Shown here: piece after piece, positions 32,495-38,227 of the stretch
How positions within the stretch are numbered: position 1 is the stretch's first letter
Layout: each line of letters opens with the position of its first letter
From: Minisyncoccota bacterium
GTDB taxonomy: Bacteria > Patescibacteriota > Minisyncoccia > Phycocordibacterales > JBBDKB01
Assembly (NCBI GenBank): GCA_040879605.1
Contig: JBBDKB010000027.1
Coordinates: forward strand, 18,250 to 56,476
Direction: 5' to 3'
Length of the DNA: 38,227 bases
Notes under the pieces: generated by a model
Told to the model about the DNA's origin: nothing
Databases searched by the model: none
What the model saw: only the letters and a program-made list of their open reading frames with translations
Program-made: the position numbers and the translations under genes

Positions 32495-32537
32495 CTGATC
32501 TGAGGCTAACATATGCCTCAAGACTTTGTCAACTGGT

Positions 32538-32772
32538 TCTTTTTTTAGGTATGGTGATGGCGAGGCGAGGTCGGGTTTCTCCTTGAGGGAGAAACCGGCG
32601 GAATTCAAATGCGGACTCGGTTTTGCCAAAACTATTTTCTGGGGATTTGGATTTGGCAAAACCTCTGCTCTGATTTCCTGCCCGCATTCATTCCCCCAGA
32701 CCCCCTTCTGCGGGCGGGATTCGCTTTGAATTTTGACCGACAGGGTTTATAAAAAGCGGAATTGGTGGTATG
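32538..32772 (+). repeat. Copy L of a ~235-nt structured leader element (sense to the downstream operon)
   Basis: It is ~95% identical to the reverse complement of 36538-36776. Helices are 32574-32582/32588-32596, 32601-32613/32722-32732, 32620-32630/32652-32662 and 32677-32685/32710-32718. It ends ...GCGGAATTGGTGGTATG, with the ATG at 32770. Confidence 0.85.
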
Positions 32773-32832
32773 TTGAATCGAATCTTGAACGATCGAAGAT
32801 TACGCTCTTTCACAACCAGAAAGGAGGACGCG

Positions 32833-33405
32833 ATGATTATTGCTCTCAGCGGGCCCTCCGGAATCGGCAAGGGCTTCATTAAGGAATGTCTACTGCAGAC
32901 TTATCCGCACATTCAGGAATTGGCATGGTTCACAACTCGTCCTCTGCGTTCAAATGAACAACAGGGCGGAAACAGAATCAATGTCTCGTTTCCCGAATTC
33001 GATCAGATGGCTGGGTTCGGCGAGCTTGTTTTGGTTCAAGACCTCTTTGGTCATCGCTATGGCCTCAGAAAAAAAGACTTACTCCCGAGTTCACACACAA
33101 AGTTAACCGAGTTACATCCGGATAATTTGCCGGAAGCGCTTGGAATAAACCCGGAGATTTTCGCTATCGGACTTGTGACTTTTGATCTTTCTCTGCTCCA
33201 TAAAAGACTTTCTATTGTGAGAAAAACGGAAAGTTCGGCAGAGATAAAAAAGAGAGTTGCGACAGCCAAAAGCGAGAGTGAAACAATCCTACAACGAAGG
33301 TCTTTGTTCACTTCAGTGATTGAAATTACTGAAGCCGGAGAATCTTCGGTGTTGGATAAGATACTTGCAGTTCTGAAACCACATCTAACCAAGAAAGGAG
33401 GGTAG
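32833..33405 (+). CDS. Guanylate-kinase-fold P-loop kinase with atypical GKG P-loop
   Basis: MIIALSGPSGIGKGF...WFTTRPLRSNEQQGGNRINVSFPEFDQM...GHRYGL follows the Gmk pattern GPSGxGK[ST]...TTRxxRxxE..G..Y.F. The start is chosen at ATG 32833 behind AAGGAGG (32821-32827). An in-frame ATG at 32770 is the last triplet of the leader element. Confidence 0.7.
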   Translation: MIIALSGPSGIGKGFIKECLLQTYPHIQELAWFTTRPLRSNEQQGGNRINVSFPEFDQMAGFGELVLVQDLFGHRYGLRKKDLLPSSHTKLTELHPDNLPEALGINPEIFAIGLVTFDLSLLHKRLSIVRKTESSAEIKKRVATAKSESETILQRRSLFTSVIEITEAGESSVLDKILAVLKPHLTKKGG

Positions 33406-33407
33406 TC

Positions 33408-34556
33408 ATGTCTCTCAAGACACAAGTCGGCCCACTGAAACTACAAACGCCGTTGTTGCTGGCTTCAGGGTACATTACCGAGACGCCAGAGTTCTTTCTA
33501 CGAGCCCTACCGTATGGCTGTTCGGGCATGGTCACCCGGTCGCTCAAACAACATGTTCCACCGGAACGTTCAAGGATTACCGTCCCGCGCTACGCAGTTT
33601 TTGGTCAGGACAATATGCTCAACTGCGAGTGGGGCAACGAAAATCCGTGGACAGATTGGCGAGATCACGGCATCCGCCAAGTCAAGGAAACAGGCTATCC
33701 CGTCATTATCTCGATCTCGGGACGAGATTTGGATAGCTGTTGTTATTTGATCCGTGCTTTTGACGAGATTGGTGTTGATGCTTATGAGATCAACATCTCC
33801 TGCTCCCATTCCGGGGCACTGCACGGGAATCTGAACGTTAATGCACTTCATCTGGAGCAGCTGATGAAAAAGGTGCGTGGTGTTACAACAACACCAATCT
33901 GGATCAAATTGTCGTACTCGAACTTGCTGTTCTCGATGGCAAGACGAGCGGAAGAACTGGGGGCCAATGCTATCGTCTGTACGAACAGCATAGGTCCTGG
34001 AATGTTGATCGACACCAAAACTGCCAAACCGAAACTTGGAATCAAGGGCGGTGGCGGTGGAGTAACGGGAAAAGCAATTTTCCCAATCGCTCTGTGGTGC
34101 GTACATCAGCTTTCGGAGACGCTTAGCATCCCAGTCGTCGGCTGTGGTGGAATTTTCACCGCTGACGATGTAGTCCAGATGCTTATGGCAGGTGCAAGTG
34201 CGGTTCAGATTTACACCGCGCCAGCACTTAAGGGTCCGAGGGTCTTCAGGCGGATCGCAACCGGCTTACAGAGGTTTCTCGATGAGAACCCGAAGTACAG
34301 TTCGATCAAAGATCTCATTGGACTCACGCTCGAAAAAACTGGCGAACACCAATTCTCGTCGCTTCGTCCGGTCGTGATTGAGGAGAGATGTACAGGTTGC
34401 GGAATCTGTATTCACTCCTGCGCATTCGATGCTCTTTCAATGGTTCGTCGAACAGACAAAAAACCACTCGCGGTTATTGCTGATAACTGCATTTCGTGCA
34501 ACGCATGCGTTGGAGTATGTCCTCTGAAGTTCGACGCGATCAAGGCGTCATTTTAG
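33408..34556 (+). CDS. Dihydroorotate/dihydropyrimidine dehydrogenase-family flavoprotein with C-terminal 2x[4Fe-4S] ferredoxin domain (PreA-like architecture)
   Basis: 382 aa. The TIM-barrel motifs are LLLASG, EINISCSHSG, GGGGGVTGKAIFPIAL and VGCGGI. The C-terminal cluster motifs are CTGCGICIHSC and CISCNACVGVCP. A strong SD (AAAGGAGGG) is present. Confidence 0.8.
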   Translation: MSLKTQVGPLKLQTPLLLASGYITETPEFFLRALPYGCSGMVTRSLKQHVPPERSRITVPRYAVFGQDNMLNCEWGNENPWTDWRDHGIRQVKETGYPVIISISGRDLDSCCYLIRAFDEIGVDAYEINISCSHSGALHGNLNVNALHLEQLMKKVRGVTTTPIWIKLSYSNLLFSMARRAEELGANAIVCTNSIGPGMLIDTKTAKPKLGIKGGGGGVTGKAIFPIALWCVHQLSETLSIPVVGCGGIFTADDVVQMLMAGASAVQIYTAPALKGPRVFRRIATGLQRFLDENPKYSSIKDLIGLTLEKTGEHQFSSLRPVVIEERCTGCGICIHSCAFDALSMVRRTDKKPLAVIADNCISCNACVGVCPLKFDAIKASF

Positions 34557-34565
34557 GAGGTTATC

Positions 34566-34811
34566 ATGGGAAAAACATACACAATCGCAGTGCATTGCGC
34601 TAAATGTACAACACAGCTCTACCGCTATAAAAAGGAGGGTGGAGGAACGCTCATAAAGTGTTACGCTGACATGATTGTGTCGGATTACACCAAAGGCGAT
34701 CTAAGATGCCATTCCTGTGGCCAGAAGTTTGCTCGACACGCCATCATCCACAACAGACCAGCACATAAGATTATCCGCGGGAAAGTCTTTGTGAGAGGTC
34801 ATCATGGATAA
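34566..34811 (+). CDS. Small zinc-ribbon protein (CxxC...CxxC)
   Basis: 81 aa. The motifs are CAKC...CHSC. An AGGAGG SD lies 5 nt upstream. Confidence 0.55.
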   Translation: MGKTYTIAVHCAKCTTQLYRYKKEGGGTLIKCYADMIVSDYTKGDLRCHSCGQKFARHAIIHNRPAHKIIRGKVFVRGHHG

Positions 34812-34824
34812 AAACAATCACAAA

Positions 34825-34862
34825 CGAGTGGCAGACTAAAACCCTGTCGCTCGTTTTTCTTT
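34825..34862. terminator. Intrinsic terminator between the convergent operons
   Basis: CGAGTGGCAG-actaaaacc-CTGTCGCTCG is a 10-bp stem with two G-U pairs, followed by TTTTTCTTTT. Confidence 0.6.
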
Positions 34863-34867
34863 TCACA

Positions 34868-35482
34868 CTACAAATTGAACCTATTTTTGAAATAATTTGA
34901 GGTATGGTTTTTGTACTCAAAAATTTCATTAGATTCTTTGTTAAGAGTATCTATATATTCAAAAAATTGTTGCTTATTAAATACCTCAAGACCAAGGCTT
35001 TTACAAACATCCGTTATTTCTTTAATTATTTTATCGGCGTCTTCATTTTCGTGCGCCATTTTCTCTGCTTCATAGTAATAACTATGTCCCGGTACTTCTA
35101 CGAGCGCGAATTCAATGTCCCTGTATTCATAGACTTTACTTTTTCTTACGCATAGCATTCCTTTACAGAATCCAAGTGCACCGAAAATCTCAACAAGGGT
35201 ATCGAACTCTCCCTCTTTTGTAAAAACTGAAAGTTCTTTTCTTTGCTCAGCCTCTCCCCATTCGCCAATTTTAACGATAATCTCAGGAATACCATTTGTT
35301 ACTCGCAATCGTATATCTTTATTCCTATTCTTAACGCCGCCTTCTAAAAAGGTTGAGTAATCAATCAAAACTCTATTTTTCTCTGTTATCTTTTTTGCTT
35401 TCGTTTCAAATAGATTAACTAAATCGCCAAATTTTTCTTTGGACAATGGGCCTCGTATTTCTATTTCAATATTTTTACTCAT
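34868..35482 (-). CDS. CYTH domain protein (CyaB/ThTPase-type triphosphate tunnel enzyme)
   Basis: 204 aa. The N-terminal EIEIRG is ExExK-like. RLRV, KELSVF, EFALVEVPG and YYYEAEK strands fit a CYTH tunnel. There is an ATGA overlap with the upstream TruD-like gene. Confidence 0.75.
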   Translation of the reverse strand: MSKNIEIEIRGPLSKEKFGDLVNLFETKAKKITEKNRVLIDYSTFLEGGVKNRNKDIRLRVTNGIPEIIVKIGEWGEAEQRKELSVFTKEGEFDTLVEIFGALGFCKGMLCVRKSKVYEYRDIEFALVEVPGHSYYYEAEKMAHENEDADKIIKEITDVCKSLGLEVFNKQQFFEYIDTLNKESNEIFEYKNHTSNYFKNRFNL

Positions 35483-36540
35483 AATTTACTAATTTTTAGA
35501 AAAATTTGTTTAATGATCATGGTGGCATAACTGCCGGTAGGCAGAAAAAACAAAATGGTTAGTTTTTTCTTGTTCTTGTGCAACTCGTCTTTTTCTAAGT
35601 TGTCAGCATATATTGTAGTCGCAACCACGACATTCCTGTTTTTAACTTTTCGTTTGGTTGTAAATTTCTCGTCCTTGAATTCATACCCGTTTACCTCACA
35701 AATATAAGGACACTGAAATGAGCGCGTTGTTGGCAAATACAAATCTCCAACATTTTCAAAATGAAATTTTTTGCTTTTAGTATTGTCTTTGATCAGTAAA
35801 GAAGTCCGATTATTCCAAAGAAAGCTATTATATGAAGAAACAAAGAAAGAAACTTTTTTGGGGTTGATTTTTTTAAAAACTTCTTTACAAGAAATAACAT
35901 TTTCCAATTTTGGGAAAAAGCTAGGCAGAATGTTGTTTGTAGCTTTCATATGACTATAGGCCTCTATCCAATCTCTTTTTACTATTGCCTCACCAATCAA
36001 GTAAGTATTGTAAGGTCCGCCCGGCATTCCAAATCTTTGATTGTCGTAATAATTTACGAACTGATGGTGTCTGTGAGTTGAAAGATAATCTAAAAGATTC
36101 TTCGCAACATTGCTTTCCAGATTTCTAACTACAATTCTAAACGAATTCCCGTGCAACATTCGCTCTTTTATTGGCTTATCTCCATAACCAATAACATGTT
36201 TGATTAGGGCGTACTGATTTCCTTCTCCATACTTTTTATTGAAAGCCGTAATATCCTTTTTACTCAAGATTTTTTTAACAGAAATAAGTTGTTCTGTAAT
36301 TGCATCCTCGTCCTTTAATCCTTGATTGGCAACATCTTCAAATTTGAGATTGAAAAATGACTTAATATAATCCAGGACATCAAAGGTCGTAAGTCCGGAT
36401 TTTTGAAGCCAAAAATACGTAAATTGAGAAGGTTTTTTAGATGCAAGAGGAGGCATTAAAGAAACCTCCGTCACCTGGAAGTCTTCGTTTTTACATTTTA
36501 TTTTGTACCCTTCAGGCTTGTTCATAATGTATAAGAACAT
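35479..36540 (-). CDS. TruD/Pus7-family pseudouridine synthase-like protein
   Basis: 353 aa. Motifs are EDFQVTEV, the catalytic-type GLKDEDAITEQ and NYYDNQRFG. The first ATG (36540) is the last triplet of leader copy R. An alternative ATG is at 36525. Confidence 0.8.
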   Translation of the reverse strand: MFLYIMNKPEGYKIKCKNEDFQVTEVSLMPPLASKKPSQFTYFWLQKSGLTTFDVLDYIKSFFNLKFEDVANQGLKDEDAITEQLISVKKILSKKDITAFNKKYGEGNQYALIKHVIGYGDKPIKERMLHGNSFRIVVRNLESNVAKNLLDYLSTHRHHQFVNYYDNQRFGMPGGPYNTYLIGEAIVKRDWIEAYSHMKATNNILPSFFPKLENVISCKEVFKKINPKKVSFFVSSYNSFLWNNRTSLLIKDNTKSKKFHFENVGDLYLPTTRSFQCPYICEVNGYEFKDEKFTTKRKVKNRNVVVATTIYADNLEKDELHKNKKKLTILFFLPTGSYATMIIKQIFLKISKL

Positions 36541-36776
36541 ACCACCAATTCCGCTTTTTATAAACCCTATCGGTCAAAATTCAAAGCGAATCCCGCCCGC
36601 ATTCATTCCCCAGACCCCTTTCTGCGGGCGGGAAACCAGAGCAGAGGTTTTGCCAAATCCAAATCCCCAGAAAAATAGTTTGGCAAAACCGAGTCCGCAT
36701 TTGAATTCCGCCAGTTTCTCCCCCCAAGGAGAAACCCGACCTCGCCTCGCCATCACCATACCGAAAAAAAGAAATC
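36538..36776 (-). repeat. Copy R of the ~235-nt structured leader element (sense to the TruD-like/CYTH operon)
   Basis: It is the reverse complement of copy L apart from a few substitutions or indels and an inverted 23-nt hairpin loop (36601-36623). Confidence 0.85.
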
Positions 36777-38199: not shown

Positions 38200-38227
38200 G
38201 GGGGGGGGGGGGGGGGGGGGGGGGGGG
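38200..38227. other. Terminal homopolymer G run (probable sequencing/assembly artefact)
   Basis: There are 28 consecutive G at the very end of the window, immediately after the last CDS. Confidence 0.7.

What the first reader, a model, noticed from the sequence alone, without database searches (positions are those of the whole stretch)
32677..32718. Flip-flop hairpin: the loop of the GC-rich stem is inverted between the two leader copies
**Seen.** On the plus strand both copies read the same way: (C/T)GCCCGC-ATTCATTCCCC(C)AGACCCC(C/T)TTCT-GCGGGCGGG, at 32677-32718 and 36592-32632's partner site 36592-36632. Everything flanking the hairpin, however, is reverse-complementary between the copies. 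For example, ATTCGCTTTGAATTTTGACCG follows the hairpin in copy L, and its complement precedes the hairpin in copy R.

Relative to the element and to the downstream gene, the 23-24-nt loop is therefore in opposite orientations:
- AUUCAUUCCCCCAGACCCCCUUCU in leader L.
- AGAAAGGGGUCUGGGGAAUGAAU in leader R.

**Established.** Loop inversions flanked by short inverted repeats arise by hairpin- or cruciform-mediated recombination or template switching, as in the small inversions seen in plastid spacers. Flip and flop forms also mark hairpin-primed replication ends and invertase switches.

**Inference.** Either the loop is functionally neutral and the stem recombines at the DNA level, or this is a genuine two-state (phase-variable) switch. 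In the second case the two operons would be set to opposite states.
Basis: partly seen in the sequence, partly recalled or inferred. Interest (0 to 1): 0.65.

Follow-up and report, generated by a model that had tools for sequence, protein, structure and literature searches.

The report
Flipped hairpin loop in mobile-cassette border
One of the two inverted repeats that bracket an acquired five-gene cassette in this ultra-small bacterium has the loop of a conserved GC-rich hairpin turned around, which is most likely a rare, one-off DNA inversion bounded by the hairpin stem and not a working genetic switch.

Summary
Two 238-nt arms (32537-32774 and 36536-36773) are reverse complements, but the 22-24-nt loop of one GC-rich hairpin reads the same way on the + strand in both. 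So the loop is inverted relative to its flanks in one arm.

The hairpin is not an mRNA leader element: it ends about 27 nt upstream of the -35 box. It is the second hairpin ("hp2") of a two-hairpin module found across Patescibacteria. This module forms the inverted borders of cargo cassettes that sit beside a large serine recombinase and a tRNA gene.

Copy R has the canonical orientation:
- In an orientation-neutral genome sample, 64 of 64 copies were canonical.
- In 401 genomes of the same order there were 57 canonical matches.
- Both arms are canonical in the closest relatives that carry the same cargo.

Copy L is therefore the derived, flipped copy. It also carries two extra loop mutations and a stem mismatch.

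Clean flips recur rarely in other lineages. I favour a single stem-bounded inversion (template switch or intra-hairpin recombination).

One open point: in relatives the hp2 loop centre is a recombination breakpoint. The flip makes the two cores direct repeats, which could matter for cargo excision.

The parts
32537..32774 (+). Arm L (gmk side) of the inverted repeat: partial outer part A, hp1, linker, hp2 (flipped loop), inner part B with promoter
   Evidence: orthologous to the gmk-side arm of L205
32620..32662 (+). hp1 of arm L: 11-bp stem GTTTTGCCAAA/TTTGGCAAAAC, G-rich loop ..TTTTCTGGGGATTTGGA; canonical orientation
   Evidence: dG -8.9, z -3.3; stem covaries among relatives
32676..32719 (+). 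hp2 of arm L, the finding: stem with a T.G mismatch, loop 32687-32708 C-rich on the + strand, i.e. flipped relative to hp1 and flanks; two extra changes compared with R and G038
32746..32774 (+). Inferred promoter inside B of arm L: -35 TTTATA (32746-32751), 17-nt spacer with TG at -15/-14, -10 TATGTT (32769-32774, exactly the end of the repeat)
   Evidence: sequence reading; conserved in L205 as TTTACA-17-TAGTTT. Not listed by the strict consensus scan
32775..36535 (.). Cargo: gmk-like (32834-33405 +), PreA/DHOD-Fe-S (33408-34556 +), Zn ribbon (34566-34811 +), CYTH (34868-35482 -), TruD-like (35479-36525 -)
   Evidence: absent from 80 other families of the order; same cassette elsewhere
36536..36773 (-). 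Arm R (truD side), canonical; homology with relatives continues outward to about 36950
36591..36633 (-). hp2 of arm R: perfect 11-bp stem; on the arm's own strand (-) the loop is AGAAAGGGGTCTGGGGAATGAAT, identical to G038, G186, G087 and L205-L207
36646..36690 (-). hp1 of arm R, canonical
36536..36564 (-). Mirror promoter of arm R (-10 at 36536-36541, -35 at 36559-36564) reading into truD; start codon at 36525, so an almost leaderless mRNA
   Evidence: sequence reading

Best explanation
**What the hairpin is.** It is 'hp2', the second hairpin of a conserved tandem-hairpin border module of Patescibacteria cargo cassettes. The module reads A - hp1 - linker - hp2 - B. The stems covary and the 19-nt loop core GGAGGGGTCTGGGGAGGAA is nearly invariant. 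Such modules normally occur as perfectly inverted pairs around 2-11 kb of cargo, next to a large serine recombinase gene and a tRNA gene.

**The situation in this genome.** An orphan pair brackets an acquired five-gene nucleotide cassette. Each arm supplies an inward-facing promoter. Arm R keeps the canonical state.

**What happened in arm L.** The 22-24-nt loop was inverted in place. The breakpoints lie somewhere inside the 10-11-bp stem. The likely mechanism is an inter-strand template switch during replication, or recombination within the hairpin or cruciform.

**What is shown and what is inferred.**
- Shown: the inversion, its polarity (L is derived), its rarity and its recurrence elsewhere.
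- Inferred: the molecular mechanism, and that it is a fixed historical event and not ongoing switching.

**Expected consequences.** The effect on the two operons is probably nil, because the hairpin sits upstream of the promoter. The effect on whatever reads hp2 (probably the element's recombination machinery) is probably loss or reversal of that site's polarity.
For: **Module identity.**
- Homologous modules occur in 12 of 61 relatives by blastn and phylum-wide by pattern search.
- In hp2, 11 of 12 stem pairs show compensatory changes and 90.8% of cells are paired, against 34-54% for slid controls. Loop columns 16-35 are invariant apart from one C/T position.

**Family architecture.**
- My own tblastn shows the layout [hp1+ hp2+ cargo hp2- hp1-], then about 350 nt, then the recombinase, then a tRNA gene, in many loci. 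In total 34 loci have the recombinase beside a module.
- This genome has one 508-aa large serine recombinase beside tRNA-Ser, on contig C15.
- The cargo gene truD is absent from 80 other families of the order.

**Polarity (R canonical, L derived).**
- All 64 distinct copies with a detectable hp1 were canonical in a search blind to orientation.
- The order sample gave 57 canonical matches, against one truncated flipped junction plus arm L of this genome.
- The closest relatives with the same cargo and the same arm subfamily (L205-L207, from three samples) have both arms canonical.
- Their gmk-side arm aligns with arm L through hp1, the stems, the promoter and the gmk 5' UTR, and differs by the loop flip.

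**Arm L looks degraded.**
- Its loop has two changes relative to the R/G038/L205 loop, and its stem has one mismatch.

**Recurrence.**
- Clean flips with intact complementary stems and normal flanks occur with three other stem types: L159 group and L189, L163, and L187.

**Known mechanism.**
- In-place loop inversions by inter-strand template switching are documented, including in bacterial rRNA (PMC8794818).
- Inversions of 5-50 bp bounded by 11-24-bp inverted repeats are widespread in plastomes (Kim & Lee 2005, as cited in PMC12928735).
Against: **Untested.** No read-level data could be examined, so coexistence of both orientations is untested.

**Signs that hp2 is acted on by recombination, so flips may not be purely spontaneous.**
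- In relatives the hp2 loop is a recombination breakpoint. The right end of L165 breaks exactly at the loop centre. G186:C18 breaks inside the loop.
- Junctions of the form A-hp2-A' with non-matching arms exist.
-.

**Where the partner arm is visible, the flipped or rearranged arm leaves the two cores as direct repeats.**
- This genome: clean flip with a complete canonical partner.
- L189: the same arrangement.
- L165: partner truncated at the loop centre.
- L090: rearranged arm with an extra linker, not a clean flip.
- Simple random flipping also predicts this outcome. So does an integration reaction.

**Unexplained asymmetry.** hp1 has equal or longer stems, yet no hp1 flip was seen. Pure mutational flipping does not explain this without invoking selection.
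Confidence: 0.6

Rival explanations
1. Recombination product. The flipped arm is the footprint of site-specific recombination at the hp2 core. Integration of a circular cassette carrying B'-hp2-B into a cargo-less A-hp2-A' junction necessarily gives one canonical and one 'flipped' arm, with the two cores as direct repeats.
For: - L165: the left arm is complete and flipped. The right end reads B'-S-ATTCCTCCCCAA and then unrelated DNA. This gives a 23-nt direct repeat that breaks at the loop centre, around 11 kb of cargo.
- Cargo-less junctions A1-hp2-A2' with heterologous arms exist. One sits beside a recombinase gene.
- L189 and L090 also have direct cores.
- B/B' would form a symmetric divergent promoter region in a circular form.
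Against: - The same cargo between arms of the same subfamily exists as a canonical/canonical pair in L205-L207. Its gmk-side arm is collinear with arm L except for the loop.
- Canonical/canonical pairs outnumber direct-core pairs by about 20 to 1, and this reaction cannot make them.
- Solo clean flips (L187, L163) have no visible partner.
- No recombinase gene is adjacent here.
Confidence: 0.15
2. Short gene-conversion patch. The loop of arm L was overwritten from arm R, aligned in direct register, with the 10-11-nt stem halves acting as microhomologies on both sides. This gives the same end state as an in-place inversion.
For: On the + strand the two hairpins are direct repeats, 95-96% identical over 21-26 nt. 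The two arms lie only 3.9 kb apart.
Against: - The two loops differ at 2 of 24 positions, so any conversion is not recent.
- 10-nt homologies are very short for RecA-type conversion.
- Solo flips in relatives have no partner to copy from.
Confidence: 0.1
3. Active reversible flip-flop (phase variation). Both orientations interconvert in the population, and the assembly froze one state at each arm.
For: - Flips recur in independent lineages.
- Stem-loop 'flip-flop' heteroplasmy is known in plastids (PMC12928735).
Against: - Orientation is canonical in 64 of 64 and 57 of about 59 copies.
- Arm L has accumulated private mutations and a stem mismatch.
- There is no adjacent invertase, and the segment is too short for synaptic inversion.
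- Neither orientation creates a promoter-like or terminator-like site.
- The hairpin lies upstream of the promoter.
Confidence: 0.07
4. Assembly or amplification artefact, for example chimeric inverted reads at a hairpin.
For: This is a fragmented metagenome-assembled genome (31 contigs) with poly-G/N scaffolding artefacts at the window end. Hairpins can provoke chimeras in amplified libraries.
Against: - A de Bruijn graph with k of 21 or more cannot thread a flipped loop through a 10-11-bp stem unless such reads exist.
- Arm L's loop carries its own two substitutions or indels, so it is not a copy of R's k-mers.
- Clean flips are seen in several unrelated assemblies.
Confidence: 0.03

Closest known systems
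Small stem-bounded inversions of hairpin loops: plastid spacer 'minute inversions' (Kim & Lee 2005, cited in PMC12928735) and template-switch loop inversions in rRNA and miRNA hairpins (PMC8794818)
   Same: An asymmetric loop is inverted exactly between the two halves of a short inverted repeat. The flanks are untouched. The event recurs independently in different lineages.
   Different: The setting here is a bacterial mobile-element border hairpin with a 22-24-nt, sequence-conserved loop. The bacterial rRNA cases reported were mostly 4-8 nt. Orientation is otherwise almost invariant, so the flip is probably not neutral for the element.
Invertase-driven phase-variation switches (Hin/hix, Gin/gix, FimB/E fimS)
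   Same: A DNA segment between inverted repeats is found in two orientations. A serine recombinase exists in the genome.
   Different: The segment is 22-24 nt, against hundreds of bp or more. It carries no promoter or coding part. There is no adjacent invertase. Orientation is fixed in nearly all homologues.
Large-serine-recombinase integrative elements (phage-type integrases; SCC-type cassettes with Ccr recombinases)
   Same: A large serine recombinase next to a tRNA gene. Short dyad-symmetric sites whose centre is a crossover point. Accessory cargo.
   Different: The sites are true hairpins with covarying stems and conserved centres, arranged as long inverted pairs around the cargo. I found no description of this family. 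In this window the pair is orphaned from the recombinase.
Flip/flop terminal hairpins of hairpin-primed linear replicons (parvovirus ITRs, poxvirus telomeres)
   Same: Two hairpin forms that are inverted complements of each other.
   Different: Those sit at the ends of linear molecules and occur at about 1:1. This hairpin is internal to a chromosome and is at least 97% in one orientation.

Membership tests
Stem-bounded small (hairpin-loop) inversion | Inverted segment delimited exactly by the two halves of an inverted repeat; flanks collinear | tested here: met
Stem-bounded small (hairpin-loop) inversion | Ancestral orientation identifiable from outgroups | tested here: met
   R-type orientation in G038, G186, G087 and L205-L207, and in 64 of 64 and 57 other copies
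Stem-bounded small (hairpin-loop) inversion | Homoplasy: independent recurrence at homologous hairpins | tested here: met
   Clean flips with three other stem types
Stem-bounded small (hairpin-loop) inversion | Arises by template switching or intra-hairpin recombination | not testable with these tools
   Mechanism inferred only from the literature (PMC8794818, PMC12928735)
Invertase phase-variation switch | Both orientations coexist in one population | not testable with these tools
Invertase phase-variation switch | Dedicated invertase gene adjacent to or inside the invertible segment | tested here: not met
   The only Resolvase-domain gene is on contig C15
Invertase phase-variation switch | Invertible segment carries a promoter, terminator or coding part whose orientation matters | tested here: not met
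   No promoter-like or terminator-like site in the loop in either orientation. The loop lies upstream of the -35 box.
Patescibacteria serine-recombinase cargo-cassette border module (hp1-hp2; apparently undescribed) | Tandem hairpins with covarying stems and conserved loops (..TYTGGGGA..GGAT and GGAGGGGTYTGGGGAGGAA or a variant) | tested here: met
Patescibacteria serine-recombinase cargo-cassette border module (hp1-hp2; apparently undescribed) | Inward-facing inverted pair bracketing accessory cargo | tested here: met
Patescibacteria serine-recombinase cargo-cassette border module (hp1-hp2; apparently undescribed) | Large serine recombinase and tRNA gene immediately outside one arm | tested here: not met
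   The flanks here are a GNAT gene with its leader and an M16 peptidase gene. The recombinase and tRNA-Ser are on C15. This is an orphan pair.
Riboswitch or mRNA leader hairpin | Hairpin lies within the 5' UTR of the regulated gene | tested here: not met
   The promoter (-35 32746-32751, -10 32769-32774, conserved in L205) lies downstream of the hairpin. No Rfam family matched. The transcription start itself was not measured.
Flip/flop terminal hairpin of linear replicons | Both orientations at about equal frequency at molecule ends | tested here: not met
   Internal chromosomal site; 64:0 and 57:2 orientation bias

The most novel reading that the evidence does not exclude
The hp2 loop may be the polar crossover core of the element's recombination system.
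- Canonical pairs carry inverted cores, so the recombinase could only invert the cargo bay. The bay is effectively locked.
- A rare loop flip in one arm, as in this genome and L189, turns the two cores into direct repeats and makes the cargo excisable as a B'-hp2-B circle. L165 and L090 also have direct cores, but with a truncated or rearranged partner arm.
- Excision would leave the A-hp2-A' junctions that are seen in other genomes.
- Tiny hairpin-loop inversions would then gate cargo turnover in an integron-like platform built on a serine recombinase.
Probability: 0.12. Interest if true: 0.75.

Novelty: new member of a known kind. Interest (0 to 1): 0.4.

Why it matters
On its own the flip is a textbook-type micro-inversion, and it corrects the idea of a regulatory 'leader switch'.

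It matters mainly as a marker. It shows that the orientation of a 19-nt loop core is almost never allowed to change in a phylum-wide, apparently undescribed mobile-cassette border. It also identifies rare natural variants in which the two cores are direct rather than inverted.

Those variants are ready-made substrates for testing two things: whether the associated large serine recombinase reads the loop as a polar crossover site, and how cargo is exchanged in genomes that otherwise seem to lack conventional mobile elements.

Tried and rejected
**Closed or empty searches.**
- Near-identical contigs from other samples: the metagenome scan with a 24-nt arm-specific word found nothing. The only Logan contig carrying the cargo ends inside the repeats, 30 nt short of the informative region. 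The exact TruD product was not on record.
- Rfam: no family matched at gathering score anywhere near the arms. rRNA-flank and ncRNA readings were dropped after Rfam scans of relatives' loci found only one tmRNA and one tRNA, neither overlapping the module.

**Readings considered and dropped.**
- Archaeal TATA-box reading of TTTATAAAAA: the lineage is bacterial, since a relative has a tmRNA and so does this genome on C15.
- RNA-specific structure: stem mismatches show no G.U bias (5 G.T/T.G against 9 others among 95 hairpins). The covariation therefore does not separate RNA from single-stranded DNA, cruciform or dyad-site models.
- Intrinsic terminator: there is no T-tract after the main stem. 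Only weak 5-6-bp chance-level matches appeared.
- Inversion of the whole 3.9-kb segment, or recombination between hp1 and hp2: worked through on paper, neither can produce a flipped loop with intact complementary stems.
- A divergent circular permutation of the cargo (truD <- B'-hp2-B -> gmk): not found. All five contexts examined keep the convergent order.

Full report
**1. The observation**

The window holds an inverted repeat with arms at 32537-32774 (L) and 36536-36773 (R), 3.76 kb apart.
- The repeat finder splits it into three inverted blocks of 93%, 98% and 96% complementarity.
- The piece between them appears as two direct repeats: 32676-32696 = 36591-36611 and 32694-32719 = 36608-36633.
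- When L is aligned with the reverse complement of R, everything matches except the loop.
- The two loops score +20 in direct register and -12 as reverse complement.

The hairpins are 32676-32719 (L) and 36591-36633 (R).
- As single-stranded DNA, R folds at -14.2 kcal/mol on both strands.
- L folds at -10.7 / -8.9 kcal/mol, because its stem has a T.G / C.A mismatch.
- A second hairpin 14 nt upstream (hp1: 32620-32662 and 36646-36690) is not flipped.
- Only these two copies exist in the 598-kb, 31-contig genome.

A stem of 10-11 bp cannot confuse an assembler that uses k of 21 or more. L's loop also has its own private changes. I therefore accept the flip as real sequence.

**2. What the hairpin belongs to**

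The arms are not private to this genome.
- Blastn found pieces of them in 12 of 61 genomes from other families of the same order. Hits were often at contig ends, and the hairpin matched on the opposite strand to its flank.
- Reading those loci shows a shared module: AATGCGGACTCGG, then hp1, then CCTCGGCTGATTT, then hp2, then a short tail.
- A tmRNA in a relative and in this genome shows the lineage is bacterial. Record titles place the module across Patescibacteria, including Paceibacteria, Saccharibacteria, Microgenomates, Peribacteria and Dojkabacteria.

The structure of hp2 is well supported.
- I found 28 different left-arm sequences, each matched by its right arm.
- On 29 distinct copies, 11 of 12 stem pairs show double (compensatory) changes.
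- 90.8% of cells are paired, against 34-54% when the partner is slid.
- The loop columns GGAGGGGTYTGGGGAGGAAT are invariant except for the one C/T position.
- Stem mismatches show no G.U bias. The data therefore demand intramolecular pairing but do not say whether in RNA, single-stranded DNA or a cruciform.

**3. Family context, tested here**

Earlier notes of this scan called this module the border of serine-recombinase cargo cassettes. I checked that claim.
- This genome encodes one large serine recombinase (508 aa from the first Met of a 536-codon open frame) on contig C15. It is 60% identical over its N-terminal domain to the recombinase that sits beside a module in G026.
- Its 3' end overlaps tRNA-Ser(GCT).
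- An hp2-like hairpin (GCGGC-GGAGGGGTCTGGGGAGGA-GCCGC) lies about 370 nt upstream of it.
- Tblastn with this protein against all fetched loci found it next to a module in 34 loci.
- The recurrent layout is [hp1+ hp2+ cargo hp2- hp1-], about 350 nt, the recombinase, then a tRNA gene.

Inward-facing inverted pairs 2-5 kb apart are the rule: at least 12 in the order sample, and 20 of 24 neighbouring core pairs in the genome sample.

The cargo varies between genomes.
- Here it is gmk-like, PreA-like Fe-S flavoprotein, Zn ribbon, CYTH and TruD-like.
- The TruD-like gene is absent from 80 other families of the order.
- The same five-gene block occurs elsewhere in varied contexts.
- The segment between L and R is therefore acquired cargo.
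- The pair in this window is an orphan: its outer neighbours are a GNAT gene with its own leader and an M16 peptidase gene.

**4. Not a leader**

The repeat ends exactly at a -10 hexamer.
- The inferred promoter is -35 TTTATA (32746-32751), a 17-nt spacer with TG at -15/-14, and -10 TATGTT (32769-32774).
- The same promoter (TTTACA-17-TAGTTT) and the downstream gmk 5' UTR with its AGGAGG are conserved in L205.
- The hairpin therefore lies at about -63 to -104, upstream of the promoter.
- The ATG inside TATGTT is not a start codon. The genes start at 32834 and 36525.
- The strict consensus scan lists no promoter-like or terminator-like site that depends on loop orientation.

**5. Which copy is flipped, and how often this happens**

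On the strand where the hp1 loop is G-rich, the hp2 loop is G-rich as well in every relative first inspected.

An orientation-blind scan of one genome per species, using the loop word, gave these results:
- It returned 120 stretches.
- Of 94 distinct hp2 copies with a stem, 64 had a detectable hp1, and all 64 were canonical.

In 401 genomes of the order:
- The canonical two-hairpin pattern matched 58 times, 57 of them real.
- The flipped pattern matched one real site (G164), which is a truncated junction and not a clean flip.
- Arm L of this genome escapes that pattern because of an extra C.

The sub-family with this window's loop variant (AGAAAGGGGTCTGGGGAATGAAT) is canonical in G038, G186 and G087.

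Most tellingly, three contigs from different samples (L205-L207) are informative:
- They carry the same cargo (TruD 85% identical) between arms of the same sub-family.
- Both of their arms are canonical.
- Their gmk-side arm is collinear with arm L except for the loop.

R is therefore ancestral and L is derived. L's loop also differs from the shared loop by an A-to-G change and one inserted G, and its stem has a mismatch.

**6. Recurrence**

A metagenome scan for 'hp1 G-loop followed by hp2 C-loop' returned 36 stretches. They fall into these classes:
- **Clean flips** with complementary stems and normal flanks, with three other stem types:
  - GCAAATGGAAA: one population seen in seven assemblies at more than 99.9% identity, plus L189.
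  - GCAAGCGGAGG: L163.
  - GCCCGCGCGG: L187.
  -.
- **L189** is an inverted pair with the left arm flipped and the right arm canonical. Its loops are exact reverse complements.
- **Junctions** A1-hp2-A2' with non-matching stem halves (L162/L176, and L188 beside a recombinase gene).
- **Truncated junctions**, where homology stops at a loop edge. G186:C18 stops inside the loop.
- **L165**: an 11-kb cargo has a complete flipped left arm and a right end that breaks exactly at the loop centre (ATTCCTCCCCAA then unrelated DNA). This gives a 23-nt direct repeat.
- **L166/L178**: a tRNA 3' end is joined to the middle of the hp1 loop.

Both loops are therefore recombination breakpoints in this family.

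**7. Mechanism**

Whole-segment inversion, or any crossover between the arms in their normal inverted register, leaves each arm unchanged because the arms are symmetric. A flipped loop needs one of three things:
- both breakpoints in the stem of one hairpin;
- a patch copied from the other arm in direct register;
- a site-specific reaction that joins halves of different sites.

The first is a documented class of mutation.
- Inter-strand template switching can turn a loop in place. 69 'loop inversion only' events were reported, including in bacterial rRNA (PMC8794818).
- Inversions of 5-50 bp bounded by 11-24-bp repeats are common in plastomes (Kim & Lee 2005, via PMC12928735).

Three facts point to an in-place, stem-bounded inversion: the canonical orthologous arm in L205-L207, the intact stems, and the solo flips elsewhere. 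I give this 0.6.

The integration model (a B'-hp2-B circle entering an A-hp2-A' junction) predicts exactly one canonical and one flipped arm, and L165 and the junctions favour it. However, it cannot make the dominant canonical pairs, and the L205-type pair with the same cargo contradicts it here (0.15).

The remaining weights are 0.1 for a conversion patch, 0.07 for active switching and 0.03 for an artefact.

**8. Comparison and novelty**

The flip is a new instance of a known kind of event. It is not an invertase switch: the length, the gene neighbourhood and the content tests all fail. It is not a flip/flop replication end.

The element it sits in seems undescribed. A full-text search for Patescibacteria with 'serine recombinase', 'inverted repeat' and 'tRNA-Ser' found no paper mentioning Patescibacteria and nothing describing such an element. 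That element is the subject of other findings.

The new points here are:
- the near-absolute conservation of loop orientation;
- the identification of L as the derived copy;
- the rare recurrence of clean flips;
- the fact that flipped or rearranged arms leave the two cores as direct repeats wherever a partner is visible (this genome and L189 with complete arms; L165 with a truncated partner; L090 with a rearranged arm).

If the loop core is a polar crossover site, the flip changes the predicted outcome of recombination from inversion to excision. That remains speculative (0.12).

Noticed in passing
L159/L192/L194 versus L166/L178 (metagenome loci): Within one population (flanks more than 99.9% identical), some contigs lack a 224-nt piece lying between a tRNA 3' end and the middle of the hp1 loop. 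The junction reads ...CCACCAgaacagaacttaacga|TTTTTTGGGG. This suggests the hp1 loop holds the crossover core used with the tRNA-end attachment site.
   Followed up: partly
G000 contig C15:3600-5920 (locus L157): The layout is an HTH gene (- strand), then an hp2-like hairpin nested inside a 15-bp stem (CACAAAAATTTCCTT...AAGGAAATTTTTGTG), then a large serine recombinase gene (508 aa) whose 3' end overlaps tRNA-Ser(GCT) on the opposite strand. No hp1 and no module pair lie beside it.
   Followed up: partly
L205:150-1740 (ENA contig, same cargo): A 1.6-kb insert with a 438-aa ORF of unknown function sits inside the B part of one arm. It is flanked by a direct repeat, ATTTTGGCGAGATAT, and by tandem copies of TATGACATTTCTATTTTGCCCGCTGG.
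   Followed up: no
hp2 loop, e.g. window 36602-36622 and all relatives: The conserved loop AGGAGGGG-TCT-GGGGAGGA is a homopurine mirror repeat, which is a triplex (H-DNA) forming type of sequence. It shares the word TYTGGGGA with the hp1 loop.
   Followed up: no
window 38200-38227 (C27:56449 onward): A run of more than 25 G followed by N in the contig. This is a sequencing or scaffolding artefact, not biology.
   Followed up: no
homologues of the TruD-like protein: Many contigs that carry close homologues are 3.4-3.9 kb long, about the size of the cassette. This suggests assemblies break at flanking inverted arms in many genomes.
   Followed up: no
L090:4958 and 7468 (complete 623-kb Patescibacteria genome): A pair whose two hp2 cores are direct repeats. 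The right site reads B'-(extra copy of the hp1-hp2 linker GCCTCGGCTGATT)-degenerate stem-loop-stem-A'. This is a rearranged arm and not a clean flip.
   Followed up: partly
window 32781-32833: The gmk-like gene has a conserved 5' UTR of about 55 nt containing a small hairpin (GAATCTTGAACGATCGAAGATT) before its AGGAGG. It is also present in L205.
   Followed up: no
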